The notes beneath the pieces were generated by a model. That model was not told the DNA's origin. It did not search any database and was given only the letters and a program-made list of their open reading frames with translations. The position numbers were made by a program, and so were the translations under genes. From NCBI GenBank assembly GCA_951406725.2, contig OX597840.1, forward strand, positions 13,516,001 through 13,580,000: a DNA stretch of 64,000 bases, read 5' to 3'. The stretch comes from Octopus vulgaris. Its lineage: Eukaryota. Of this stretch, positions 4,556 to 64,000 are shown piece after piece; the stretch's first letter is position 1; every line of letters begins with the position of its first letter.

Positions 4556-7280
4556 CTAAGAGGAGGGGGCTGTGTTGAGTCCGTGTGGGGTTAGAGTCCG
4601 TAGAAGGAATATGAACCGTTGCTCCAAGTGAAGCCTAGATTGGGAAGAGCCGTTGTGTGGGGCAAGACCAAACACCGAGATGTCATCGGGGGAATGGCTG
4701 GCTGAGCGGAAGTGCCGTGCGACGGGAGAATTGGAAAATAGACGAACATCCCGCAGATGCTCGGTGAATCGGTCTGACAACCGACGTCCCGTCTGTCCTA
4801 TATACAGCATCCTGCAGCGGTTGCATTTACTGCAGTATATGAGTCCAGACGAGGTGCACGTAAAGGAATACCTGATACGTACAGTTCGCCGGTTGGAACC
4901 GGTGACAGCAGTGGTGTTGGTGATGAAGGGGCAGGTGTTGCAGCGGGATCTGGAGCATGGGAAGGATCCGAGTGGGGCCGAGGGGGAAGAAGGGAGGGTG
5001 CTACGGACCAGGAGGTCGCGTAGATTCCGGGCTCGTTTGAGCACGAAGTATCTTCCGACGAAGGGGTAGTGTAGAGGGGTGGAAAGGAGGGGAAAGGGGT
5101 GCGGTTGGGGGGGGTGATTGGAAGGAGAAAGGGCGGTGGTGCGGTCGATGCGACGAGCGCGGGCGAGGGCGTTCAAGACCAGGGTAGGTGGGTATCCTCG
5201 AAGCCTGAACAGGCGGGCCAGGTATTGAGACTGGGTCTCGAAATCCTGGTCGCGGCTGCACAAGCGTCGGAGGCGGAGGAACTGGGAGTAGGGGATAGCC
5301 CGTTTGGTGTGGAAGGGATGGGAGGAGGAGAAGTTGAGATAGAGGTGGGAATCCGTGAGTTTGAAGAAGGCGGAGGTGGTGAGAGAGTGGGAGCGGTGGT
5401 CGATGCTGAGTGAGATATCTAGGAAGTTAACGGAAGTATTGGATATAGTGGAAGTGAATTGTAGAGAGGGGTGGAAGTTAGAGAGGAAAGAGATGAAGTG
5501 ACAGAGTTGTTCACGGGAAAGGGAGGTGGCGCCTATACAGTCGTCTATGTAACGACCGTATAGTTCTGGGGTCGGCCCGGAGAATTGGGAGAATACTTGG
5601 GCCTCAATGTAGCCAACAAAGAGATTGGCGAAATTGGGACCCATTCTCGTTCCCATCGCGACCCCGGACACCTGTTGGTACGTTTCCCCGCGAACGTGAA
5701 ACAGTTGAGGGTTAGGACGAGCTCTGCCAGGCGGAGAAGGGTGGAGGTGCTAGGGGTGAGGTCGGGGCGACGGTCGAGGAAGTGTTGGAGAGCTAGGAGA
5801 CCGTCGTTGTGGGGAATCACCGTATACAGTGATTTGATGTCAAGGGTGAAGAGGAGGTGTGAGGGGCTGGAAGGGAAGGAAAAGGAATTGAAGAGACGGA
5901 GGGCGTGGTTGGTATCATGTATGTGAGAAGGGAGGGCTTTGACTAAAGGGGACAGGATGCGGTCGAGGTATAGGGAAATGTGTTCAGTAGGGCAATTACA
6001 GGCGGAAACAATGGGGCGGCCAGGGGTATTGGGCTTATGAATTTTGGGAAGGAAATAGATGGTGGAGGTGCGGGGTGTGCGGACGATGAGGTTGGTGGCG
6101 GTGGGGGGAGAGCAGAAGAAGAGATGAGATCGCGGATAGTGGAGGCCACTCGCTGTTGGTAGGAAGAGGTGGGATCAGAGGGGAGGAGGCGATAGAAGAG
6201 GGGATTTTGAAGCTGGCTGAGCGCTTCCTCCCTGTAGAGATCCGCGCGCCACACCACCACTGCTCCGCCTTTGTCCGCCGGTTTGATGACAATGTCATTG
6301 CGGCGACGGAGGTGGCGATGGGCAACCAATTCAGCCTGTGTGAGGTTGTCTCGGAGAGGTCTTTTTTAAAATCAAACCGGTTTACCAACGCGTTGCAGTC
6401 GTTCACAAACGAGTCTAGGCTTCTGAATTGGCCCGGGGGCGGCGTCCAGTTGGATGGGCGGCGCCCCAGCTCCAAAAAGCAATCCTGATTGTCGTGACGC
6501 TGCGGAGACGCGTGGTAGAAGGCGCAAAGTTTGAGGCGGCGCAGGAACTGGTTGACGTTCGTCCGAGTCTCGAATTCGTCACAGTGGCGCGTGAGAGGCG
6601 TTAAACGGAGTCCCTTACTGAGGAGAGAGCGCTCGGCTGCGGAGAGGGGGAGATTGGGGGGTATAGTGACAACAGTGCGAGGAAGCGGGGTGGTGGGATG
6701 AGTGGGGTCGGGAAGAGGGGGTGCAGAGGTGTGGGGAGGAGAGTGGGGGTGGTTAGGTGAAGTGGGGGTAGGCGTAGAAAGGTCAGGGTGGGGTGTGTGT
6801 TGGTTCGTGGGGGGAGGGGGAGGGGTGGAGAGAGTCGGGGGAGCTGGAGGGGAGGAAGTGGAGGATGTGGAGGAGAGGGGAGCGGAAGGAGGTAAAGGGT
6901 TGAGGAGGTGGTGGAGTTTTTTGTTTTTTGTGTGTGAGGAAATTATGAAGCTGGTGGTTGAGATTAAGAATGAAGCGGAGAATAGGTTGGGTGAAGAGTG
7001 GAGGGCAGAGGGAGGAGAGAAGAAGGTAAGCTTGGGGAAGTAGGTGGTCAAAGGAGTGGAGGAGAGAGCGGGTGGAACGGATGGTAGCACGGATGAGGAG
7101 GCGTGAAGTGCGGGCGAGGGTGGGTTCGATGAAGGGGGAGGAATAGGGGGTGGCGTGGAACTTCAAGAGGAAGCCACGGGGTGTGACGTGATAGCGGAGG
7201 CAACGGCTGAGGAAGGAGAGATGGCTAGAGTGGCGAGTTTTTTTAAAAAGTGAGAGAGTTTTTTTGCGGGTTGTAAGCAT
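4556..7280 (-). mobile_element. Penelope-like element (Neptune-type), near full-length, frameshifted
   Basis: Across several frames: N-terminal region, IKPADKGGAVVV, DIKSLYTVIPH, GVAMGTRMGPNFANLF, RYIDD, FLD, a Cys linker PCSRSRCNTC, and C-terminal GIY-YIG (LIYC..C..C..LYIGQTGRRL..RF.EH). Confidence 0.93.
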
Positions 7281-7589
7281 TGAGGGGGGGGAAGAAAGCG
7301 AGAAAGCGGCTAAGAAGGGATTGAAGGTGTTGGACGAACGAGTGCAAGTCAGGCATGTTGGGAAGTGGTGAAGGTGTATGTAGGTGTAAGTGGTGGTGAC
7401 ACAAGTGGAAGAATGGAGGTGGAAGAAGAAAGGTAAAGAAGGAAAAAGGAAAAATACAGGGAGATAAGTTCAGGAAAAGAGTTCAGGAGAAAGTTAAATA
7501 AGAGTCACGGACAGATTTTTTTGATTTCCAATCACGAGTTCAGTGGCGTACTCCGGAAGGATGGTAACAGTAATCCGTAGGTGAAAAAA

Positions 7590-7833: not shown

Positions 7834-7883
7834 TATATATAAATATATATATAATTGTATGTATATATATATATATATATATA

Positions 7884-10195
7884 TCAAAGCCTCTATACTG
7901 TTATCCCTCACCACGAAGGACTGCAGGCCCTTCGACACTTTCTTGACCTCCGCTCTAACCCTGTACCTGACACCTCCACACTCATTCGTCTGGCCGAACT
8001 TGTCCTTACTCTGAACTGCTTCGCGTTCGCGGGCGAGTTCTACCATCAGGTCTCGGGAGTGGCCATGGGAAAGCGAATGGGCCCCAACTATGCGAACCTG
8101 TTCGTTGGCTATGTTGAGGCCCAAATATTCTCTAATTTCACTGGTCCCACTCCTGAACTATATGGTCGTTACATCGACGACATTGTCGGTGCCACCTCAC
8201 TCTCCCGCGAACATCTAGATTCCTTCCTCTCTTTCGTCCAATCTTTCCATCCAGCCCTCCACTTCACTTCCACTATCTCCAACACCTCTGTCTCCTTCCT
8301 CGACATTTCGGTTAGCATTCTTCACTCCACTCTTACCACCTCCATTCACTACAAACACACAGACTCACACTCATACCTCAACTTCTCTTCCTCCCACCCA
8401 GAACACACCAAGCTTTCCATCCCCTATTCCCAATTCCTCCGTCTACGTAGGCTCTGTAGTGACGACCATGACTTTGAGACTCAGTCTCAACGTATGGCTC
8501 ACCACTTCACCCTACGTGGATACCCCCTCACCACTATCCACACCGCCCTTGCCAGAGCACGGTCCGTGGACCGTGTATCTGCTCTCTCTCCCCGAACCCG
8601 CCCTGTAGTCTCCCGCCTCCCTTTTCCCCTCACTTACCACCCCACGACCCTACGTCTCCAACGCACCATTCTTCGAGCTTTCCGTCATCTCCAGTCCGAC
8701 CCGTCCACTTCACACCTCTTCCCTAACCGACCCCTCCCCTCTTTCAAACGAGCCCACAACATTCGAGACCTTTTGGTCCATAGCTCCTTCCCTGACCCTA
8801 CCTCCCAACCCGGCTCGTTCCCCTGCTCCCGCCCACGTTGCCGCACTTGCCCTTACCTCTCCAACACCACCCGCCTCACTAGCACCCACCATCGACCCTA
8901 TCCCATCATCCACTCCTTCACCTGCACCTCCAGCAATATTATCTATTGCATCTCTTGCTCTCTCTGCAATTCCTTGTACATCGGACAAACGGGACGCCGT
9001 TTGGCTGACCGGTTCGCGGAACACCTTCGTGACATCCACCTTGCGAACGACACACCGGTCTCACGCCATTTCCGCTCCACCGGTCACTCCTTGCAACACC
9101 TATCTGTGTTCGGTTTGTCCTTACACAGAGGCCATCGGGATTCCCGTTTGCGCCGTGAACAGGAATTAATCTTCTCTCTTCGCTCTTATACGCCATTTGG
9201 TCTCAACTCTCCCCCCCCTCATCTAACCCTCCTCTCCCCCCTCCTCACCTATCCTTTCCCCCCCGACCCCTACTTCTTCAGTCCTTCATCCTTTCACCCC
9301 TACTCCCCTTCCCTTCTTCCCTCTTTCTCCCTCCCTCCTTCCCTCTTCCCCTTCCCTCTGCTCCCTCACTCCCTCTCTCCCCTTCTCTCTCCCCCTCTCC
9401 CTCTTTCCTCCTTCCTCCCCCTCATTCCCTTCCTTCTCCCCTCCTATCTCTCCCCCATCCTCTCCTCTTCCCCCTCTCCTTCCCCCCCTCTTCTCCCCTC
9501 CCCCTCTTCTCCTCACACCACACGACTTTACACATCACATCATATATGATGTGCCATACTAATACATACACCAACTAATACATACACCAACTAATACATA
9601 CTAATACGTACTAATACATACTAATACATACTAATACATACACCAACCCTACACATACACACGTCCAGACCCCTCATACGCACTTATACTCTCTCATACA
9701 CACACACACTTATACATACTAATACGTACTAATACATACTAATACATACACCAACCCCATACATACGCACGTCCAGACCAATCCTACGCACTAATACTCT
9801 CTGATACACACACACACACACCCTTATACATACTAATACATACACCAACCCTATACCTACACACGTCCAGACCCCTCCTACGCACTATTAGCTGGTCCTT
9901 CAACCCTATTATCAACCCTATTATCTCCCCTTATTTCGCTCTCGCGTCTCATGTTTGATCTTTGACCTCTGGCCGAAATCAGATCGCCATGTTGATTCGT
10001 TAGCTACTGCACGCATTTTTTTTCTCTCCTTCTTTCTGTGTTTTTTTCTCTCTGTGTATCTTTCTGTTGAAGAGCGTAGGCTCGAAACGTTAAAGACTTG
10101 TTTTATTTATATTTCCTGAGCGCCATACTAATACAATTGTTCGTTTGTTTTCCACCTGCCTTCGTCTTTTGTCTATTTTCATAAAGCTTCCCGTT
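7884..10195 (+). mobile_element. Penelope-like element (Neptune-type), 5'-truncated, inserted in (TA)n
   Basis: Open ORF from SLYTVIPH through GVAMG, YIDD, PCSRPRCRTC and IIYCISCSLCNSLYIGQT. The 3' UTR has short tandem repeats and a hammerhead-like motif. (TA)n lies on both sides. Confidence 0.93.
10058..10097 (+). ncRNA. Minimal hammerhead ribozyme variant in PLE 3' terminal repeat
   Basis: TTGAAGA core, GAGC-GTAG-GCTC hairpin (overlapping the core), GAAA, palindromic AACGTT stem III, and tcttt/aaaga stem I. Confidence 0.65.
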
Positions 10196-17362: not shown

Positions 17363-19070
17363 TCAATCTGGTTGCCGGGTAGGTCTATAGTTCTTGTAGT
17401 TTGCATAATTCTTATGCATGCAATTTGGGGAGTGTTCTGAAATCTTGTTAAGGAGAGGGCCTTTGGCGAACAAGATCTCTAGGCTCTCAGAAATGCAAAG
17501 GTCACAGCAGGTATGGCCTCCTGTGTACGAACGCGCCTTCTGTAGTAGTTTCCACTTGGTCTTGAAGGGGATGGAGTTCCTTTTAAGGTACCAGATGTGG
17601 GCGGCGAGGGTAGTTTGGTTGGATTTATCCGGTCGCCGGAACGAGTGTGTGTGTGCGTACCAACGGGTCTTAAAGCTGTTTGACGTCATTCCGATGTAGG
17701 AATTTCTTTTATCGTCAGGGCCTGATCTTACCTCGCATGTATATACTAGGTCCCTCTGTAGGCAGTTGTTGTTGAGGGGGCAGGTGGTTTTATCAGGGCA
17801 GTTGCAATTGCTATCGGACGTTGGATGGGCCTCAGAAAAAGTAGATATGTTAAGTTTTTTCACATTGTTGTTGGCTAGGTTCCTGGCTAGATTGGGCGTG
17901 GTAGAGTAGGAGAGTCTAATAGTGTTCTTATTTAGGATAGTGTAGTACTTATGTTGGGTGGGGAAGTGTTTCTGTAGGAGAGTGAAGAAGATTTTAGCTA
18001 CAGGTGTAGCGACCTCACGGTTGAAGAGGGGGTTGTACCAGCTAATGTGTCTTCGTCTATTTTTCCTGGGTTGGCGTGGGGCTATACTAGTATAGGTAAT
18101 CTTATCTTTAAAGCCACTGCGGGCCAGGGCCTCGTTGTAATAGGGGGCTGCGGCCTTTAAAGATATCTTCCGTGGCGGACAGGCTAGAAATTCTTATTGA
18201 GACACTTTTTACTAGGTTATCTAATATATTTTTGGGGTGGTTGGAATTAATATCTATATATCTAAGGGATTCATTTGGTTTGTGGTACGGGTAATAAAGT
18301 GAGGTTTTTAAGTCGAGGGTGACGTCAAGGAAGTTAGCTTTGGTTAAGTTGGATTCTAAGGTAATCCTAAGGCCTAAGTTTTTAAAGAAGGTGTAAAGAT
18401 TTTTCCGGAACCCATCCGTGGTCCTGGGGTTTATTTTGTGGAGGGCGAAAAGGCCGTCATCGCGGTAAAGACCACCGGAGAGGCCTGTGAATAGGGTTTT
18501 CAGCCTATGGAGGATGAAAAGGCCCACTAGGTCACTTATTTCAGCCGAGTCGCTAGCACCCATGCTGACGTCGAAGGGGGTCACAGATTTTTTGTTGATC
18601 CAGTGGGATCCGTCGTGGAAAAGAAAAGTCTTACGTGCGTGGAGGATCACATCTTGCTCGGCCTCGGTGATGGTGGAAGACCTCCTGGCGAAGTTAATCG
18701 CGTCGATCAGCAAGCTCTCCGATATGGAGGCGTAGTAATCCTCGATATCCAGTTGTAGGAATCGGGTGTTGCTTTTGTCAGGTAAATCCCGGAACCAGGT
18801 TATTGCCTCGGAGGTCCTATTCCAGAGTGGAAGGGGTGAAGCTTCACGCATTTTTGGTAAAATCCTGTCCAGGATCTTCTTGCTGACGGATCCGATGTCA
18901 GACTTGGTTGGGTTAATCAGTCGGACCGACGGTTTATTTTCGAAATGGTCTTTGTGGTCTTTCAGGGTGAAGTGTGGGGACTTCACCCTCAGGGGTTCAG
19001 TTCGGTCATCAATTTTAAGGGAGGTGGCAATCTCTTTCCCGGCTAAGTTGGTTTCAGTTAGCGCTGTGTC
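17363..19070 (-). mobile_element. Penelope-like element (CxCx5C linker, Nematis-like), 5'-truncated, frameshifted
   Basis: Motifs TLKDHK...RLINPTKS, LDIEDYYASI, FDVSMGASDSAE, GLYRDDGL, NFLDVTL and WYNP, then CNCPDKTTCPL...C..LVY.C...YIGMT...FK.R..H (GIY-YIG). Confidence 0.92.
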
Positions 19071-20633: not shown

Positions 20634-20751
20634 CTGCAGCTTTGTCTGAGAGAAATTTCAGGTATTGCATTATTTTAGGTCTTTTACTGGAATCGTAGTC
20701 AACATGATCAAGATATTTGTGTATGAGAGGAATTAAACCAGGGAAATCATC
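20634..20751 (-). CDS. GCLC: GCLC-like exon
   Basis: Acceptor ctcaacAG, donor GTaaga. Encodes DDFPGLIPLIHKYLDHVDYDSSKRPKIMQYLKFLSDKAA(G), with the FPGLIP motif. Confidence 0.94.
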
Positions 20752-21900
20752 CTGTTGAGAATAGAATCAAAAGGATTGGAAATAGTTTGAGTTTTTCTGT
20801 TGGAGATGTTGACCAAAGAAAATTTCATTATATAATCTGGAATATATTTATGGCAGTCTTTGACCCCGCTTTTAATGAAACTATGATGATTTCTAACATA
20901 AAATGTGGTGAATCATTAAAACACTAGAGAGAAGACTAACGATGAATTGTAGAAAATTATGACGAGGAAAATTAGTGATGTGTGTAGATGAGAGGGAGCA
21001 AATAAGGGAAATTATCCTGTTGGCAATAGAAGCAAAATAATCAAAAATAGTTTCAGTTTTCTGATGGATATATTGACCAAATGGTTATAAAATTTGCTGA
21101 TATTTTTTGTGAAGGAAATATCTGAAAAACTGAAGCAGAAATAAGAAAAATTTCATGATGTTAATTTAGGATATTTTTATGACATTCTTTGACATCTGTC
21201 CCTTTTAATAAAATTATGATGATTTCTAACATACAGACAAAGCCATAAAGCTTGGGGTGTCACAGTGAGATGGGTGTTAGAAAGAGAGAGAAAGAAATAG
21301 TATGGTAGAAGGGACAAACAAATCTCTTTGGAACCATTTCATCTCTACAATTGAACCATTCTGCTTAATCCATGATTTCATGGAAGAGTTTAATAACCAC
21401 AATTGTCATGCAGATTCTTCATTCCTCAGAGTAATTGGAACTTATAGAACAATCTAGAATCTTTTCTATAGACTATTTCTTATTGAAAAAATCATTACCA
21501 ATTTCTTTGGATTAAGAATTTTGTGTGGACATTGATGTGTTTCACAAGTTCCTGAGGTATCCAGGGCATATTCTATTGTCACCATATGTCGATCAGTGCT
21601 TTATATACACACACACAAAGACACACACACTCACCCCATCCTAACCTCTAAAGCCAATCCCCCAAATCATTGATGCTTGAAGGAGAGACAAAAAGGATAA
21701 ATTCTTTTCAGTTCCACATTACTCCTCCTTTCCCCCACCCAAACACACCTACAGTGTCCCTTGAAATAAATAATATTCTTTTACGTTAACACAACATGGT
21801 GGACAGGTCAGTTTTAGCTTCCCTACTATTATAATGTAAACCTTTTTGAACTCATAATATTCTGTGCGTGTATACCAATATTCCACTGAACTTTTTAATA

Positions 21901-23705: not shown

Positions 23706-24683
23706 TAAAGAGTTTAGACAGAATAATGGAAATACCTTAAAATTTCAAACAAATTTATTTTAATATGGGGTACGACTGCGTTTGGCAGTAATTACAGCTT
23801 GAATTCTATGAGGTATGGACTCATACAAAATTTGAATTGTTTCCAAATGAATTTTCGTCCATTCTTCAGCTAAAACGGTCTCCAGTTCTTGTAATGATGA
23901 TGGTGGAGGATATCGACTCATTTGTTTTTCTAAAATGCACCATAAATGTTCAATAATACTGAAATCCGGGGTCTGTTCAACTTCACTAGAATGTTCCTCG
24001 TGCCTTTCAGAAACAACTTTCGGTGTATGAATTGGTGCATTATCATCCTGAAAGATTGTGTTTCCCTCTGGAAACAGTTCTGCGACCATAAGATGAAACT
24101 AATCAGATAAAATGCTTAAATCGTCTTGACTATTAATTCTGGCATGAAAGGACCGGTGGATTTCCAAGATATAGCCTCCACCTCCAGGTCATCACAGATC
24201 CTCCTCCATGTTTAATAGTTAGAAGAAGGCAGTCTGGGTCAAATGCTTCTTTTGGCTATCTCCACACATATACTTGGCCGGTGGTCAGAAATAAGGTATA
24301 GGATGACTCCTCTGCGAAAATAACATTCTTCCACTGATCCAGGGGCCAATTCTGTAGGTTTTTAACTCCACTCTAAATGCTCTGTAACGTTTGTTTTTGA
24401 AAGTAGTGGTTAACTGATTGCAGCCCTCCTGTGAAATCCGGCTTGTGCAGCTCGCAGCAAAGAGTTTTTGTGGAAACTGGGTTCTCGAGGTGGTCATTAA
24501 GCTCTCCAGTAATTTTGGGAGCTGTACTTTTGTGATCCTTTCTAACAATTTGCATAAGAGTCCAACGGTCCCTGTCTGAAAGTTTTGGTTTTCTTCCGGA
24601 ATTTTGTTTCAACGTGGAGGTTTTTCCCTCTTTCTCAAGGGGCTGTCATTACTTTTGAGACAGTACTTCTTGATACACCAAAC
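23706..24683 (-). mobile_element. Tc1-like transposon remnant
   Basis: Encodes FGVSRSTVS, SGRKPKLSDRDR, FQDDNAPIH...PDFSIIEHLW and LYESIPHRIQAVI; frameshifted. Confidence 0.88.
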
Positions 24684-26380: not shown

Positions 26381-26451
26381 CTTTCCATTCATGATTTCAT
26401 TTAAAGTCATCAGGGAGTAAATTTCATGGGTTACCTCACAACTGGTAAATT
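26381..26451 (-). CDS. GCLC: GCLC-like exon
   Basis: Acceptor tgtcaactAG, donor GTaaga. Encodes (E)FTSCEVTHEIYSLMTLNEIMNGK, matching Y.LMSID.I.NGK. 71 nt, phases fit. Confidence 0.9.
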
Positions 26452-29315: not shown

Positions 29316-29394
29316 CATTTTGAACTTCTCTGAAGTGAAACTTTTCTGTATTAGTGGAATCCCGCTTTTGTGCTGATGTGAAGTTTTCATCAAC
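29316..29394 (-). CDS. GCLC: GCLC-like exon
   Basis: Acceptor ctcttcaAG, donor GTaaga. Encodes [26 protein letters not shown](E), matching VDENM..AQKRDA....FYFR. Confidence 0.93.
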
Positions 29395-37577: not shown

Positions 37578-37682
37578 CTTTGTTATTGGGATCAAAAGGT
37601 TCAGTTTGAAGGTAACAATGGCTCGGGTAAGAAGGACCATAAATACAACAAGGGCAGCGTTTTCAAAGTCGGTCAATTGAAG
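37578..37682 (-). CDS. GCLC: GCLC-like exon
   Basis: Acceptor tttccAG, donor GTaaat. Encodes [35 protein letters not shown]. 105 nt. Confidence 0.96.
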
Positions 37683-39902: not shown

Positions 39903-39989
39903 CTCCATTGTTCTGAATTCTATTTTCCATCCAGATTTCTCATCAGGAAGTTTCAGTTTCAGGTTTTGCCAATTACTACCAATGACGGC
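39903..39989 (-). CDS. GCLC: GCLC-like exon
   Basis: Acceptor ttttaAG, donor GTaaca. Encodes AVIGSNWQNLKLKLPDEKSGWKIEFRTME (NWQ...GW..EFR.ME motif). 87 nt. Confidence 0.93.
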
Positions 39990-41618
39990 CTTAAAACAGA
40001 ATGTTAAACAAGGGTCTTAAAGCAGAATGTTAAACAAGGGTCTTCAATGATATAGAACATATACAACAATTTAATATGATATACTGTATTTATTCGTATG
40101 CAATATATAATCACATATAATGCACATTACTGGTTATGTGTCTTGTATAATAGACACTGGTTTTTCTGTAGTATTATGATATCTGGGAAATAAGTGTTTA
40201 GTCAGATTTATTATAATTGCTGCATCCTTAAATAAAGAAAAAGTGAATACTAAAGTGACCTTTGACATTTACTAGAGTAGAATGTAAATATGATAGACAG
40301 TAAATATCAGAGATAAATGTACCCAGAGAAATGAAACACCAAGCTAACGATACTTTTGAAAATTGTATTAAAAAATTACTCGTTATTTCATAACCAAATA
40401 CTAGTAATTTAAAATTATATATTCTTGCTTTTCATAATTTCTGTGTTTAAAAAGTTCTAATTTTTTACCTAAACTACTTTACATTTAGCAGCTAATTAAG
40501 TGATAATCATTATACTCTATCTTTATTTCTTATTTAATGTAACCCTTTACGAAATAAATACAAAAAGGAAATTCCCTTGACAGCGGCAGTAGTTTGCTCC
40601 TTAAATTTGATTTTAAAATGCCTGCTACTCCAACCACTGTAATCTCTATCACACTGACTTTAATTTTAAATCAACCTTTCCATTTTTCCTCGTTTGCTGG
40701 TCGGCAGCAGTGATAAACGCTTCATCTCATCAATAATATTTGTTTTACCTCTAATGTCCACTTACTCTCTATTTGTTGTTTTTACAAACTCTCATTCAAG
40801 CACTATCTGATTTATGTGATAGTGAACAAACATGGTGGCTGCCCCTTCGTTATCAAGTATGGCCATTGCACGAAGCTTAATCAATATTGTTATCGTGCAA
40901 TGCCTGTGCAAGAAATTTTTTTTTAAAGCAAGGAAAGGCTGTGCACTGAGTCAATCCCACTCACTAAGCAACAGCAGCCATAATCCGAAAAGAAGAACAA
41001 GTCAACATCATCAATAACCACTGAGCTGCAGGTTTTATGTCGGAGATATCCCAGTTACCTGAGTTACCTTCTCCTAGAAGGATGCCCTAACAAAGGCTTG
41101 GAGTCCTTCACTCCCAATGATTTAACTGCACGATCGGGTATTCAGTCTAATTATTTCTATGTCCCCGTGCATGATACAGCCTTAAGACATTTATTGGATA
41201 GCCATTGACTCTCAAGAGTTCCTCTGCCCTTTGACAGGTTTTGTTTTTCATCCCGCAGGGTATCCAATAAACACCCTCCTCACCAAGCAAGCTTGGTGGG
41301 GTTACCGGTTTAGTCGCCAACGACCCGACCATGCAACAGGTTGTACTGGGTTACATGTTACCAGTAGCACTCGAAAGTGATCTGACATACAAGCTAATTA
41401 TCATACATTCTTTTATTCTTTTACATGTTTCAGTCATTTGACTGCAGCCATGCTGGAGCACACCTTAAAGTGTTTTAGTCAAGGAAATCAACCACAGGAC
41501 TTAATCTTTGTAAACCTAGTATTTATTCTATCGGTCTCTTTTGCCAAACTGCTAAGTTAAATATACCAGCATTGGCTGTTGAGCGATGGTGTGGGGACAA
41601 ATACACACACACACATAC

Positions 41619-41665
<47 letters not shown>

Positions 41666-42306
41666 ATATTAGGGAGTATAACTCCAAACTTACAGGGAAA
41701 AATTCAATTTAGTATTAAAACAAATTTCACAATATAAATATATAATATATATAAATTAGAGAAAACCCACTATTATGCAATTCAAACAATGGTAGACATA
41801 AACCATATCATATAGAAATATGGTAATCTTCACTGTGGTTGGGAAGCAAGCTATATATATATAAAAGGCGGCGAGCTGGCAGAAACGTTAGCACGCTGGG
41901 CGAAATGCGTAGCTGTATTTCGTCTGTCGTCACGTTCCGAGTTCAAATTCCGCCGAGGTCGACTTTGCCTTTGATCCTTTCGGGGTCGATAAATTAAGTA
42001 CCAGTTACACACTGGGGTCGATATAATCGACTTAATCCGTTTGTCTGTCCTTGTTTGTCCTGTCTGTGTCTAGCCCCTTGTGGGCAGTAAAGAAATATAT
42101 ATATATATATGATGGGATTCTTTCAGTTTCCATCTACAGTTATCTCTGATACTTACTGTCTATCATACTTAAATTCTACTCAAGTAAATGTCAAAGGTCA
42201 CTTTAGGATTTGCTTTTCCTTTATTTAAGGATGCAGCAAATCATATTCTATATGATTTGGTTTATGTCTATCATTGTTTGAATTACATAATAGTGGTTTT
42301 TCTCTA

Positions 42307-42384
<78 letters not shown>

Positions 42385-42389
<5 letters not shown>

Positions 42390-43328
42390 CTTACCCCTGC
42401 TGGTGACAAAAGGCCTCTCGCTCAAAGTAAAAGGCAGACTGTATGATGCATGTGTACATACAACCATGCTACATGGTAGTGAAACTTGGGCTGTGACTGC
42501 TGAGGATTTGCGTAAGCTCGCAAGGAATGAAGCTAGTATGCTCCGATGGATGCGTAATGTCAGTGTTCATAATTTACAGAGTGTAAGTACCTTGAGAGAA
42601 AAGTTGGACCTAAGAAGCATCAGTTGTTGTGTGCAAGAGAGACGTTTGCGCTGGTATGGTCATGTGACGAGAATGGCTGAAGATAGTTGTGTGTGAAAGT
42701 GCCACACCCTGGCAGTTGAGGGGACCTGTGGAAGAGGTAGACCCAGGAAAACCTGGGACGAGGTGGTGAGGCACGACCTTCTAACTTTAGGTCTCACCAA
42801 GGAAATGATGAGAGACCGAGACCTATGGAAGTATGCTGTGCGTGAGAAGACCCGGCAAGACCAGTGAGAACAGTCAAAATCAAAATCAAACCAAATCAAA
42901 TCAGATATCAGAAAGCAAAACCAAAATTGAGGTCGATCAACATTAGTGAAAATTGCAGCTGTGGTTAAGCGAACCATCCGATCGTGGCCGCGGCATGCCC
43001 CGTCTGGCCTCCGTGCCGGTGGCACGTAAAAGCACCATCCGTTCATGTCCGTTGCCAGCCTCGCCTGGCCCCCGTGCCGGTGGCACGTAAAAGCACCATC
43101 CGCTCATGGCCGTTTGCCAGCTCCGTCTGGCACCTGTGCGGGTGGCACATAAAAAGCACCCACTACACTCACGGAGTCGTTGGCGTTAGGAAGGGCATCC
43201 AGCCATAGAAACACTGCCAGATCAGACTGGGCCTGATGCGGCCTTCCGGCTTCACAGACCCAAGTTGAACCGTGCAACCCATGCTAGCATGGAAAGCGGA
43301 CGCTAAGTGATGATGATGATGATGATGA
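42385..43328 (+). mobile_element. RTE-X-like LINE 3' part with tandem-repeat 3' UTR
   Basis: Encodes TKGLSLKVKGRLYDACV..MLHGSETW...RLRWYGHV and GRGRPRKTW, with a (GAT)n tail. Other copies at 50500-51330 (+), 60845-62180 (-), 15078-15450 (-). Confidence 0.88.
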
Positions 43329-45578
43329 TATATATATACAACGGGCTTCTTTCAGCTTCCGTCTAACAAATCTACTCACAATGGTTTGGTCGGTCTGAGG
43401 CCACAGCAGAAGGCACTTGCCTAAAGTGCCATGCAATAGGACTGAACCCGGAACCATGTGGTCGGAAAGCAAGCTATATATATACAATGGGATTATTTCA
43501 GTTTCCATCTACGAAATCCACTCATAAGGCTTTGGTTGGCCCAAGGCTTTAGTAGAAGATACTTGCCCAAGAAGTCATGCAGTGAGATTGAACCCACAAT
43601 CATGTGGTTGGGAAGCAAGCTTCTTACCACAGGACATCATTTTAAGATTAATTTCTCATTCATTTTTAGCATACTCATTAAAATATGCCAAAAACCTATC
43701 AGAACCTATACTTGTACAAAAGCTGCTTTTTGTGTCTTTTCTTACCTGGAAATAACTGCTTCTCTCCTCTGTATTAAAATGTTGTCACCATTAACTGTTG
43801 AACTATGTATATGTGAAATTTATGTTTATCTACTTTTATGCTAAACACGTTACCCTTAAAGATTGTTTTAGCCGATTATGTCTATGCATACAAGTCGGTC
43901 TTGGATTTCATGCAATGTATTAACCTGTCCGATTTTAACGACCTGTTAGTGATTAAGTCCTTAATCATCGGATATTGTTTTCTTTGATATTTATACATCA
44001 GTTCTTTATATAAAGAGAATACTATTTGGTGATAATTTTTTAGGTGCTTATATTTTATCATTTGCTTGTTTCAGTCATTGGACTACAGACAAAGCCTGGT
44101 ACTTATTCTTCGGTTATTTTTGCCAAATCGCTAGATTACAAGGACGTAAAGAAACAAACATCGGTTGTCAAGCAATAATGGATACAAACACCAATAAAAA
44201 GACACACAAACACTGGAATATATACACATACAAACACACACACACACACACACATATGCGCACACACACACACAGAGAAATAGATAGACAGACAGACAGA
44301 TAGATACACAATATGCTTTCAGTTTTTGTCTATCTAATCCCCTCACAAAGCTTTGGTTAACCTGGGCTATAGTAGAAAACACTTGCACAAACTGCTACAG
44401 AGTGAGATTGAACCCAAGACCACACGGTTGTGAAGCAAGCTTGTCGACTACACAGCCATGCCTAAGAAGATGACAAAATTTAAGGACTTAGACAAGTTTT
44501 AGGGATTCGTTGCATTTAAACATTATTACAGTCAAGCAATTACATTATCTGGAAGTTAACACAATGTTTCCAGTCAACCGTTTATACTAAGAAATATTTT
44601 ATCTGCATAATACTAACTAACCTTAACCCTAACCCTAGAGGTTAGAGTAGCGGACTCATGGTCAAGGGATCGTGGGTTCGAATCTCAGACCAGGCAATGT
44701 GTGTTTATGAGCGAAACACCTAAGCTCCATGCAGCTCCGGCAGAAGGTAATGGCGAACTTCTGCTGACTCTTTCGCCACAACTTTCTCTCTCTCCTTCCT
44801 CCTGCATCTTGCAGCTCACCTGCGACAGGCAAGTGTCCCGTCCAGATAGGGAGCCTATACACCAATGAAACCAGGAAACCAGCCCTTATGAGCCAGGCAT
44901 GACTTAAGATGGAACAAACAACAGCAACAACAACATTACTAACTGATGCTTTAGGTGGTAAGTTGCTAGAGTCATTAGAAAGTCAGAGAGCGCAGTTTGC
45001 ATCATTTGCTTAGGATCTCTGTGATGTACTTTTAAACCCTGCCAAGGTAAACTTTGCCATAATTTTGGGTGCGATAAATAAAATACCAATTCAATTTTGA
45101 GGTTGAGTTTTCTTTCTTTTCCCCCCTCTCTCTTTTTCTGTATGTGTGTGTGAGTGTCTCTCTCTCTCTCTCTCTCTCCCTCTCTCTCTCTGTTTTTCTA
45201 CATGTCTTTTTCTCTCTGTGTGTGCCTCATGTTTTTAATCTCCTCCTCTGCTTCCCTCCCTCTCTGTCTTTCTATTTTTCTGAGAGTCTCTCTCTTTCTC
45301 TCTGTCTCTTTCTGTTTCTTTTTTCTCTACGTGTCTCTCTCTCTCTCTCTCTTCCTGTCTCCCTCTCTCCCCAACCCCTCTCTGTCTCAGGAAGAAATCA
45401 GTTACAGTTAAACCTGAATAAGGACACGCTCCAGCAATTTTAAAATACCCAGGACACAACATAAAACATGACACCACCTCTGTGACTCCATCAAGCATTG
45501 AAGGCCCAAGAAAGGAAGAAATTTATCCATTGTAGAATTAATTTCTAGCATCATAACTCCCATAGATTTATTTATAAA

Positions 45579-45960
45579 CTAGCAGTATCGCCCGGCGTTG
45601 CTCAGGTTTGTAAGGGAAATAACTATAAAGCATTTTTAGAGAGTTATAGCCAAAAAATAGCAAAAAAATGGAAAAAAATGATGGTAAATTTTTTTGAGAG
45701 TTAAAAAAGGTCGAGTTGCGTCCCCTAGACAGTCTGTGGTTTGTGTTTCTGATTCTCGACCCCATGTCGAATTTATCGATTTTTTCAGAACTGGGGGAAC
45801 TTTTCAAAATTTTCGCTGCGTTAGTTTTGAATTATGACATTGGGCTATGTGTGAGTCAAGTTTCATCAGAATCGGTTGAAAGCCATGGTCAGGGTGAGGG
45901 TACAACCTGACAGACACACAGAAACACACACAGACAAACTGCCGTTTATATATAGAGAGA
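45579..45960 (-). mobile_element. Non-autonomous Helitron
   Basis: Minus strand reads A|TC...hairpin (cctgagcaacgccggg)...CTAG|T, i.e. insertion into AT with no TSD. Confidence 0.8.
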
Positions 45961-45996
45961 TTATCAAAAGGATATATTTTACAAATATATATTTAC

Positions 45997-46109
45997 CTGA
46001 ATGTGATCTGTATCATTCATTATGTCTTGATCGATCTTCTCTTTGTATAAAGCGATTGGGTCTCTGACCAGGAGTTGGGCAACGTATTTGGACATCATTT
46101 CATCAACAC
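45997..46109 (-). CDS. GCLC: GCLC-like exon
   Basis: Acceptor aatcAG, donor GTaaat. Encodes (G)VDEMMSKYVAQLLVRDPIALYKEKIDQDIMNDTDHIQ, with the RDP motif. 113 nt. Confidence 0.93.
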
Positions 46110-48385: not shown

Positions 48386-48524
48386 CTTCAGCTTTCAGTA
48401 ATTCATACTGCTCATGGTCATAAGTGAAATCATAATCATTATAAAATTGGTCACTCACAGAAAGGTAACTGCTTACTGTATCATAACGGGATTTCTTCAT
48501 CAAAATGTTACCATTTGTCAAAGG
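48386..48524 (-). CDS. GCLC: GCLC-like exon
   Basis: Acceptor ccttttAG, donor GTattt. Encodes PLTNGNILMKKSRYDTVSSYLSVSDQFYNDYDFTYDHEQYELLKAE(G), with the KSRYD motif. 139 nt. Confidence 0.95.
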
Positions 48525-51425: not shown

Positions 51426-51542
51426 TTCTAAACCCTGTTCTTGTCTGGTACGGTCATCACAAGACTGAGAAATAGTACACCAGCGACAGTCAGTATCAGA
51501 CAAAAGTCCTCGATAAACTGGAGCCGCTGCTGTTAGAGCTAA
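51426..51542 (-). CDS. GCLC: GCLC-like exon
   Basis: Acceptor tttccAG, donor GTgagt. Encodes [39 protein letters not shown], 39 codons. Confidence 0.95.
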
Positions 51543-54665: not shown

Positions 54666-54883
54666 CATAATTGGAGTAAGAGGTACCAGATTGTCATAAA
54701 GGTAAGCAGCTTCTTTTATATCAGCAGCTTGAAATGTAACTTGGAGAGAACAACAACCAGCCCCAAATGTGAAGGAATCCATGTAAATATAGCCTGGTTT
54801 CAATGATTTCTTCATCTCTTTATTGTCTCCATATTCAGACAAGTCTTCCCCGTATGGCATCATGGTATTTTTATCTTTATAAA
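54666..54883 (-). CDS. GCLC: GCLC-like exon
   Basis: Acceptor ttgtttcAG, donor GTgggt. Encodes YKDKNTMMPYGEDL...IYMDSFTFGAGCCSLQVTFQAADIKEAAYLYDNLVPLTPIM, the GCLC YMD..FG.G...LQVTFQA motif. Confidence 0.95.
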
Positions 54884-57438: not shown

Positions 57439-57497
57439 GCGGTACATTGGTTGCAGTTCTTTCTTTCCTTCTGTATACCATATTTTTAATTCGATCT
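57439..57497 (-). CDS. GCLC: GCLC-like exon (59 nt)
   Basis: Acceptor ttcccaatcaAG, donor GTgagt. Encodes (R)DRIKNMVYRRKERTATNVP(L), aligning to TLTRNIRHRRGEKVVINVPI. Phases fit both neighbouring exons. Confidence 0.85.
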
Positions 57498-62394: not shown

Positions 62395-62511
62395 CTATAT
62401 ACAGGATGCTGGAAACACAGTGCAGCATCTGCTATGAAAACTGATTGGTGAATTTCCGTTACATGTTTGTTTGCTTCATAAGAGGGAAAAGTGAAATTAG
62501 GACAACCCAAT
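62395..62511 (-). CDS. GCLC: GCLC-like, first exon within window (upstream exons outside window)
   Basis: Acceptor ctttcAG, donor GTatga. Encodes (R)LGCPNFTFPSYEANKHVTEIHQSVFIADAALCFQHPVY(R), matching the GCLC segment RLGCPGFT...SLFFPD..I..HPRF. 117 nt, phase 2 to 2. Confidence 0.9.
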
Positions 62512-63830: not shown

Positions 63831-64000
63831 ATACTAGGACACTCAAAATGAGAGGGGAAAATGAATGATATGGAAATATCATTTCATATGTTCTCTCATT
63901 CATAAGAAAAAGATATCTCATAATAATAATAATAAAGCAAAAAGAAATTATGAACTCTGAGTGGCTCTCTCCCCTTAAAGGGAAACTTCACCTTCCCTTC

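What the first reader, a model, noticed from the sequence alone, without database searches (positions are those of the whole stretch)
39903..46010. Second active-site motif also replaced (DHFENIQSTNWQTMRFKPP to DHIQAVIGSNWQNLKLKLP)
Seen across the 45997/39989 exon junction. As recalled, this block is one of the most conserved in eukaryotic GCLC and borders the substrate pocket Trp and nucleotide-binding basic residues. Many substitutions around a retained NWQ, while the neighbouring structural exon ([10 protein letters not shown]...) stays conventional, argue for targeted change rather than random decay (inference).
Basis: partly seen in the sequence, partly recalled or inferred. Interest (0 to 1): 0.7.

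Follow-up and report, generated by a model that had tools for sequence, protein, structure and literature searches.

The report
Octopus glutathione-enzyme copy with remodelled pocket
Octopuses carry a cluster of extra copies of the first glutathione-making enzyme that keep its metal- and phosphate-handling core but have rebuilt the pocket that normally holds cysteine, so they probably attach glutamate to other small molecules.

Summary
Exons ending at 45997 and starting at 39989 (minus strand, GT-AG) splice to DHIQ|AVIGSNWQNLKLKLP. The gene is intact over 12 exons, with 462 of 462 residues matching Octopus vulgaris CAI9741799.1.

It is not the octopus GCLC. A conventional GCLC with DHFENIQSTNWQ lies on another chromosome. 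This gene belongs to a fast-evolving paralogue clade: six models on one O. vulgaris contig, orthologues in O. sinensis and O. bimaculoides, one in Argonauta. The replacement is clade-wide and kept in orthologues, so decay is excluded.

The block is enriched for changes at otherwise invariant sites (8/14 vs 37/163, p=0.009), but the whole protein has diverged and a broader near-site test was not significant. Mg ligands, Lys451 and catalytic Arg472 (yeast numbering) are kept in 7 of 7 paralogue groups. Acceptor-side positions (R196, L200, M258, M262, C266, this helix) are changed, and several differ between paralogues.

Best reading: ATP-dependent gamma-glutamyl ligases with new acceptor substrates, possibly amines. 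Activity and substrate are untested. Five literature searches found no description of the cluster.

The parts
62395..62511 (-). First coding exon inside the window (P0001 aa 73-110); holds HPV, where conventional HPR has yeast R196 (Val codon 62402-62400). Upstream exons lie beyond the window.
57439..57497 (-). Coding exon (aa 111-130); L200->R (57493-57491) and R205->V (57478-57476)
54666..54883 (-). Coding exon (aa 131-203); first remodelled motif DSFTFGAGCCSLQ (M258F, G259T, M262A, C266S), with Q268 and Q272 kept
51426..51542 (-). Coding exon (aa 204-242); R313 kept (51485-51483)
48386..48524 (-). Coding exon (aa 243-288); Y362, the glutamate-carboxylate contact, kept in this gene (48485-48483)
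45997..46109 (-). Coding exon (aa 289-326) ending in DHIQ; His->Tyr (46086-46084) at the position of the human deficiency allele H370L
45997..46008 (-). 5' half of the finding's block, DHIQ (conventional DHFE)
39990..45996 (-). 6,007-nt GT-AG intron that splits the block (phase 0)
39945..39989 (-). 3' half of the block, AVIGSNWQNLKLKLP; W445 at 39971-39969, R449K at 39959-39957, K451 at 39953-39951
39903..39989 (-). Coding exon (aa 327-355); also holds GWKIEFRTME with R468K, Mg ligand E470 (39920-39918) and catalytic R472 (39914-39912)
37578..37682 (-). Coding exon (aa 356-390), [10 protein letters not shown]..., conventional
29316..29394 (-). Coding exon (aa 391-416)
26381..26451 (-). Coding exon (aa 417-440)
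20634..20751 (-). Coding exon (aa 441-479); Cys->Pro at the position of mammalian C553
11710..11876 (-). Last coding exon (aa 480-534, stop codon 11712-11710); lacks the C-terminal tail of conventional GCLC

Best explanation
The gene is a neofunctionalised paralogue of the glutamate-cysteine ligase catalytic subunit. Shown: it arose by duplication, the conventional gene was kept, the copy diverged on a long stem and multiplied in Octopus, and it keeps the GCL fold. Inferred mechanism: as in GCL, Mg ions held by E50, E52, E96, E103, Q268 and E470, with K451 and R472, let ATP phosphorylate the gamma-carboxyl of glutamate. An amine then attacks the acyl phosphate to give a gamma-glutamyl amide. 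The finding's block is the helix and turn leading to W445 plus the strand carrying K451. Together with R196, L200, M258, M262 and C266 it most likely reshapes the acceptor side, so cysteine is no longer the preferred acceptor and different paralogues take different acceptors. My preferred acceptor class is a more hydrophobic amine or a non-cysteine amino acid, because the invariant Arg196 is replaced by V/L/F/Y in all seven groups. That last step is inference only.
For: Intact 12-exon frame, 462/462 to CAI9741799.1. Conventional GCLC present separately in three Octopus species and Argonauta. The paralogues form one clade (100/100), sister to octopod conventional GCLC (98/89), with a stem of 0.86 changes per site. 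AlphaFold model of the O. sinensis orthologue: pLDDT 88.2, TM 0.88 to yeast GCL 3IG5, Z 44.6, rmsd 2.1 A over 593 residues. D49, E50, E52, E96, E103, Q268, Q272, K451, E470 and R472 are kept in 7 of 7 groups, while only 97 of 177 near-invariant sites are; six of six metal ligands kept gives p=0.025 (Q268 as a ligand is recalled, the other five are). The most variable formerly invariant sites among paralogues are M258, L200, H194, S442, N439, M262 and R196. In other eukaryotic GCLC-like proteins with intact metal ligands, a changed first pocket goes with a changed helix: 16/23 vs 10/75, p=6e-7. Conventional GCL already accepts other acceptors (PMC10179188 passages).
Against: No activity, substrate or expression data. 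Taken over all 17 listed contact residues, 10 are kept in all groups, no more than background (97/177), so the p=0.002 printed is for a hand-picked subset and should not be relied on. Nucleotide-side residues also changed (T105K, R449K, R468K, P473T), and Y362 is Phe in 5 of 7 groups. The cysteine backbone contacts E96 and W445 are kept in this gene. The near-site neighbourhood test was not significant for this gene. The pocket roles of R196, L200, M258 and M262 in the yeast structure are recalled; the papers were not held. The 16/23 vs 10/75 rows are not phylogenetically independent, and the divergent set is more diverged overall (0.27 vs 0.20). E50 to E103 lie upstream of the window and were read from the orthologue P0012.
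Confidence: 0.58

Rival explanations
1. It is still a glutamate-cysteine ligase but a deregulated isoenzyme: less sensitive to glutathione feedback or independent of the modifier subunit, and multiplied for gene dosage in particular tissues.
For: E96, W445, Y362, R313 and R472 are all kept in this gene. In plant GCL an Arg at the pocket mouth binds the glycine end of glutathione (PMC6463388 passages); its equivalence to R196 is my recollection. The C553-equivalent Cys and the C-terminal tail are lost; their link to the modifier subunit is recalled.
Against: Dosage copies should not differ from one another in the pocket, yet M258 reads F/P/K/M/P/K/L and L200 reads R/I/R/V/I/S/A across the seven groups, and W445 is lost in two. 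The site of the human loss-of-function allele H370L is Tyr in 17 of 17 paralogue models.
Confidence: 0.2
2. It is a pseudoenzyme or recruited structural or ligand-binding protein under relaxed selection, as cephalopod S-crystallins came from glutathione S-transferase; the pocket drifts because it is unused.
For: 80 of 177 near-invariant sites changed in at least one group. Orthologues diverge faster than the conventional gene: 328/349 vs 322/328 identical between O. vulgaris and O. bimaculoides. Nucleotide-side arginines became lysines. One group also has R313A and W445G.
Against: Metal ligands, K451 and R472 are kept in 7 of 7 groups, including Argonauta at 62% identity. The Arg-to-Lys changes keep the charge.
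Confidence: 0.17
3. It is a decaying pseudogene, or a splice or annotation artefact.
For: The database model CAI9741799.1 lacks the E96/E103 exon, and several paralogue models are partial.
Against: Twelve canonical exons without a stop or frameshift. A full 606-aa orthologue in O. sinensis and the same block in O. bimaculoides. The missing exon would lie outside the window.
Confidence: 0.05

Closest known systems
[quoted passage not shown]
   Same: Pfam GCS 467 bits over the full profile; same fold; metal ligands, K451, R472, R313, Y362 and W445 kept in this gene or its orthologue.
   Different: 54% identical to the octopus's own conventional GCLC; R196V, L200R, M258F, M262A, C266S, F437I, E438Q, N439A, Q441I, S442G, T443S, R449K, F450L, R468K, P473T; about 43 residues shorter; multi-copy.
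Carboxylate-amine ligase YbdK and other GCL-fold gamma-glutamyl ligases (PafA)
   Same: Same fold family (Z 27 and 16); a precedent for GCL-fold enzymes with weak or no cysteine preference (recalled).
   Different: Bacterial, 10-15% identity, not its ancestor.
Neofunctionalised glutathione-synthetase effectors of cyst nematodes (PMC5919673, passages seen)
   Same: Lineage-specific expansion of a glutathione-pathway housekeeping gene, catalytic and ATP residues kept, one half of the substrate pocket diversified, canonical activity lost.
   Different: That is the second enzyme of the pathway (ATP-grasp fold) and is delivered into the host; here it is the first enzyme, with no sign of secretion, and activity is untested.
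Gamma-glutamylhistamine synthetase of Aplysia (EC 6.3.2.18; table row and reference seen in PMC9547800)
   Same: ATP + glutamate + amine chemistry in a mollusc, the reaction a re-pocketed GCLC would give.
   Different: No sequence link. That it has no known gene is recalled. The one Aplysia GCLC in my set is conventional, and I found no divergent Aplysia copy (only 10 of 149 unnamed representatives were looked up).
Uncharacterised divergent GCLC-like proteins of Mytilus, Mactra, Lingula, Tachypleus, Halotydeus and some fungi
   Same: Metal ligands kept, the same two segments altered, tail shortened; F450L in four of four compared and an aliphatic residue at P452.
   Different: Best trees place the octopod clade with cephalopod GCLC, not with them; no function is attached to any in the database names.

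Membership tests
GCS / GCLC protein family (PF03074) | Profile match above the gathering score over the whole domain | tested here: met
   467 bits vs cut-off 25, profile 1-372
GCS / GCLC protein family (PF03074) | Eukaryotic GCL fold | tested here: met
   Model of orthologue P0012: TM 0.88, Z 44.6, rmsd 2.1 A to 3IG5
Catalytically competent GCL-fold ligase | Mg ligands E50, E52, E96, E103, E470 (and Q268), K451 and catalytic R472 | tested here: met
   7 of 7 paralogue groups; Q268, K451, E470 and R472 are read in the window, E50-E103 from orthologue P0012
Conventional GCLC orthologue (EC 6.3.2.2) | Orthology to the single-copy GCLC of animals | tested here: not met
   A separate conventional gene exists in each octopod; this gene is in the paralogue clade
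Conventional GCLC orthologue (EC 6.3.2.2) | Invariant HPRF, MGFGMG.CCLQ and HFENIQSTNWQ motifs | tested here: not met
   All three altered; these positions are 50-51 of 51 in conventional sequences
Conventional GCLC orthologue (EC 6.3.2.2) | Cysteine backbone contacts E96 and W445, glutamate contacts E52, Y362, R472 | tested here: met
   Kept in this gene or its orthologue; W445 lost in 2 and Y362 in 5 of 7 groups
Conventional GCLC orthologue (EC 6.3.2.2) | Forms gamma-Glu-Cys; inhibited by glutathione and BSO; binds GCLM | not testable with these tools
   Needs an enzyme assay
Gamma-glutamyl-amine synthetase (EC 6.3.2.18-like) | ATP-dependent ligation of glutamate to histamine or another biogenic amine | not testable with these tools
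   No reference sequence found; only the loss of R196 is suggestive
Gamma-glutamyl-amine synthetase (EC 6.3.2.18-like) | Present in gastropods, where the activity was measured | tested here: inconclusive
   No gastropod member of this clade among the listed hits; most representatives stayed unnamed

The most novel reading that the evidence does not exclude
The cluster is an octopod-specific set of gamma-glutamyl-amine ligases built from GCLC, each tuned to a different biogenic amine or octopus metabolite. The same helix has been re-cut independently in mussels, clams, brachiopods, horseshoe crabs and fungi. Divergent GCLC copies would then be the gene class behind invertebrate gamma-glutamyl amine conjugation (EC 6.3.2.18-type), and this block would be their specificity switch.
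Probability: 0.15. Interest if true: 0.8.

Novelty: new variant of a known kind. Interest (0 to 1): 0.52.

Why it matters
GCLC is normally a single-copy, strongly conserved housekeeping enzyme. A cluster of copies that keep the catalytic core but differ from one another in the acceptor pocket points to undescribed gamma-glutamyl chemistry in octopods. It gives concrete, soluble candidates to assay for the amine-conjugating activity measured in molluscs in the 1980s. It also marks a helix that may set acceptor specificity in eukaryotic GCL, and it warns that octopus transcripts labelled 'GCLC-like' may not report glutathione synthesis.

Tried and rejected
Alternative conventional exon in the window: none by tblastn of five proteins or blastn of the exons.

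Pseudogene: rejected.

One ancient clade of all divergent GCLC copies: a short LG+G4 search joined them with support 98. The tree holding the octopod copies with cephalopod GCLC was 26 log-likelihood units better under that same model and was preferred by the mixture model. The AU test did not reject the joined clade (p=0.18), and shared-residue counts were 15 vs 18. Independent origin is therefore favoured but not proven.

Sequence-neighbourhood enrichment around contact residues: not significant for this gene. A 3D distance test was impossible because model coordinates are not returned.

Squid or cuttlefish members: none among the listed hits. This is weak evidence; no animal genomes could be scanned, and the metagenome and viral collections stayed unchecked.

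Literature on the cluster: listings of searches showed nothing on it. Word searches found no mention in the main text and nine supplements of PMC7656900, three supplements of PMC9712504 (one picture PDF unread) or the supplement of PMC7693380, and none of this gene in the main text of PMC6635378. The yeast structure papers and the O. bimaculoides genome paper were not held, and bioRxiv supplements were closed, so expression data may exist unseen.

Adenochrome biosynthesis was considered and set aside: as recalled its peptide part is glycine, not gamma-glutamate. No complex prediction was run.
Full report
OBSERVATION. On the minus strand the exon 46109-45997 ends in D-H-I-Q followed by GT. The exon 39989-39903 follows AG and reads AVIGSNWQNLKLKLPDEKSGWKIEFRTME. 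The two are separated by a 6,007-nt phase-0 intron. A search over AG/GT boundaries gave one exon chain: 12 exons from 62511 to 11710 that translate without a break into 462 residues identical to residues 73-534 of Octopus vulgaris CAI9741799.1 (P0001), plus a stop. The 5' exons lie beyond the window. Five exons tested each match Pfam GCS.

WHAT THE GENE IS. It is not the octopus GCLC. O. vulgaris (CAI9722052.1), O. sinensis, O. bimaculoides and Argonauta hians each have a conventional GCLC with DHFENIQSTNWQSLRFKPP on a large chromosome. The window gene belongs to a separate set. CAI9741796-99, CAI9742054 and CAI9742280 share one 40.2-Mb contig in O. vulgaris, their O. sinensis counterparts share one 20.3-Mb contig, O. 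bimaculoides has orthologues, and Argonauta has one (GAB1605628.1). Tandem arrangement is inferred from consecutive accessions and contig length, not from coordinates. In a 41-sequence tree the 16 paralogue models are one clade (100/100) on a stem of 0.86 changes per site. It is sister to octopod conventional GCLC (98/89), with an unnamed cephalopod-like sequence (P0028) outside. A profile search of 1.84 billion representatives returned one hit above 1000 bits, an Octopus paralogue, and the next at 656 bits. Clear clade members among shorter hits were all named Octopus. The clade looks confined to octopods in these data, though squid genomes could not be scanned.

STRUCTURE AND RESIDUE ROLES. 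AlphaFold of the full-length O. sinensis orthologue P0012 (342/349 identical to P0001 over residues 203-551) gave pLDDT 88.2. It matches yeast GCL 3IG5 at TM 0.88, Z 44.6, rmsd 2.1 A. The block is helix 395-403, a turn with the Trp, and strand 408-411. Yeast numbering comes from the alignment. Table 3 of PMC5613772 (section read) lists E50, E52, E96, E103 and E470 as Mg ligands, K451 at the ADP phosphate, E52, Y362 and R472 at glutamate, and E96 and W445 at cysteine. So the block does flank the pocket Trp and a nucleotide-binding Lys. That R196, L200, M258 and M262 line the cysteine pocket is my recollection of the yeast structure papers, which were not held.

IS THE CHANGE TARGETED? Of 177 columns near-invariant in conventional GCLC, P0012 changes 45: 8 of 14 in the block and 37 of 163 elsewhere (p=0.009, block chosen post hoc). 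Shuffles reached the best 19-residue window in 77 of 5000 cases and the block's own count in 363 of 5000. The neighbouring exon changes 1 of 16. Against this, invariant sites within 6 residues of 17 contact residues are not enriched in this gene (16/54 vs 25/106, p=0.26; without the block 11/46 vs 23/103), although the other six groups give p=0.03-0.09. The replacement is old and shared: F437, N439, Q441, T443, F450, R468 and P473 are changed in 7 of 7 groups. The exon holding most of the block is 28/29 identical in both orthologues. Decay is excluded; concentration at the pocket is moderately supported.

WHAT IS KEPT AND WHAT VARIES. D49, E50, E52, E96, E103, Q268, Q272, K451, E470 and R472 are kept in 7 of 7 groups. 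For the six metal ligands alone p=0.025 against a background of 97/177. Over all 17 listed contacts, 10 are kept, which is background level, because T105, M262, R449 and R468 (this gene and others), R313 (one group), Y362 (five) and W445 (two) change. The formerly invariant sites that vary most between paralogues are M258 (F/P/K/M/P/K/L), L200 (R/I/R/V/I/S/A), H194, S442, N439, M262 and R196 (V/L/L/F/F/Y/L). The position of the human deficiency allele H370L (PMC11444706 passages) is Tyr in 17 of 17 paralogue models, while P414 is kept in 17 of 17.

INDEPENDENT CASES. Of 149 unnamed representatives, 1 was set aside as mammal-like and 148 aligned; 98 had all tested sites covered and intact metal ligands. 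Among them, 16 of 23 with a changed first pocket also had two or more changes in this helix, against 10 of 75 with a conventional first pocket (p=6e-7; rows not independent; background divergence 0.27 vs 0.20). Ten were looked up: Mytilus, Tachypleus, Halotydeus, Lingula, Mactra, three fungi, and two left unnamed. Mixture-model trees keep the octopod clade with cephalopod GCLC. A short LG+G4 search joined all divergent copies, but the alternative was 26 units better under that model. The AU test does not reject the joined clade (p=0.18). Repeated independent remodelling of this helix is favoured, not proven.

MECHANISM. Shown: duplication, retention of the conventional gene, intact frame, fold, and the pattern of kept and changed residues. 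From established GCL chemistry (PMC5613772 passages): Mg-ATP phosphorylates the glutamate gamma-carboxyl and an amine attacks. Inferred: the paralogues still do this with new acceptors (0.58). Rivals are a deregulated but true GCL (0.20), a pseudoenzyme (0.17) and decay or artefact (0.05). Conventional GCL is already loose about the acceptor (PMC10179188 passages). ATP-dependent gamma-glutamylation of histamine was described in Aplysia as EC 6.3.2.18 (table row in PMC9547800), and gamma-glutamylserotonin occurs in Aplysia, annelids and cone snails (PMC8155685 passages). That octopus salivary glands are rich in biogenic amines is recalled. Against the link, the one Aplysia GCLC in my set is conventional and no expression data were found.

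COMPARISON AND VERDICT. The protein is a member of the GCS family by profile and fold but fails orthology and motif tests for conventional GCLC. The closest documented parallel is the expansion of re-pocketed glutathione synthetases in cyst nematodes (PMC5919673 passages). The listings of searches showed no description of the octopod cluster; the library omits most subscription papers. Verdict: real feature, new variant of a known enzyme kind, function untested. Interest 0.52.

Noticed in passing
window 40041-39990 (-): The splice acceptor of the block's second exon is a 26-nt tandem duplication (one mismatch); the upstream AGs at +26 and +52 nt would shift the frame if used.
   Followed up: partly
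window 20978-21075: Degenerate direct copy (78% over 99 nt) of the acceptor and first codons of exon 20751-20634.
   Followed up: no
window 20751-20634 and 11876-11710 (-): The last two exons are identical in protein to the neighbouring paralogue CAI9741798 (39/39 and 55/55), while the two exons around R196/L200 are 23/38 and 7/20; this suggests gene conversion of the 3' part or shared exons.
   Followed up: partly
window 20620-20552 (-): Intron sequence after exon 11 matches the C-termini of database models P0004 and P0011 (78% and 68%), so those models read into the intron and the intron is conserved between paralogues.
   Followed up: no
upstream of window position 64000: Model CAI9741799.1 lacks the E50 and E96/E103 segments that the O. 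sinensis orthologue has; probably an annotation gap, not checkable in the window.
   Followed up: no
paralogues P0013/P0005 and P0015/P0016/P0022: Two sister groups have lost W445 (Thr; Gly), and the second also has R313A; they may use another donor or be inactive.
   Followed up: partly
P0298 (O. vulgaris, 119-Mb contig): A 163-aa fragment of the paralogue clade lies on a different chromosome from the cluster.
   Followed up: no
window 7855-9546 (+): 564-aa ORF that looks like a Penelope-type retroelement by eye, with a weak GIY-YIG match (E 0.003, below cut-off); retroelement-like fragments also at 5946-7469 (-) had no Pfam hit.
   Followed up: partly
window 18111-19058 (-) and 23763-24098 (-): Intronic mobile-element remnants: weak RVT_1 (E 0.02) and DDE_3 transposase (E 8e-4), both below cut-off.
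   Followed up: partly
P0149, P0369, P0158, P0168, P0182, P0226, P0258, P0265: Divergent GCLC-like proteins with intact metal ligands and altered pockets in Mytilus, Tachypleus, Halotydeus, Lingula, Mactra, Dimargaris, Aspergillus and Cyphellophora; worth a survey of their own.
   Followed up: partly
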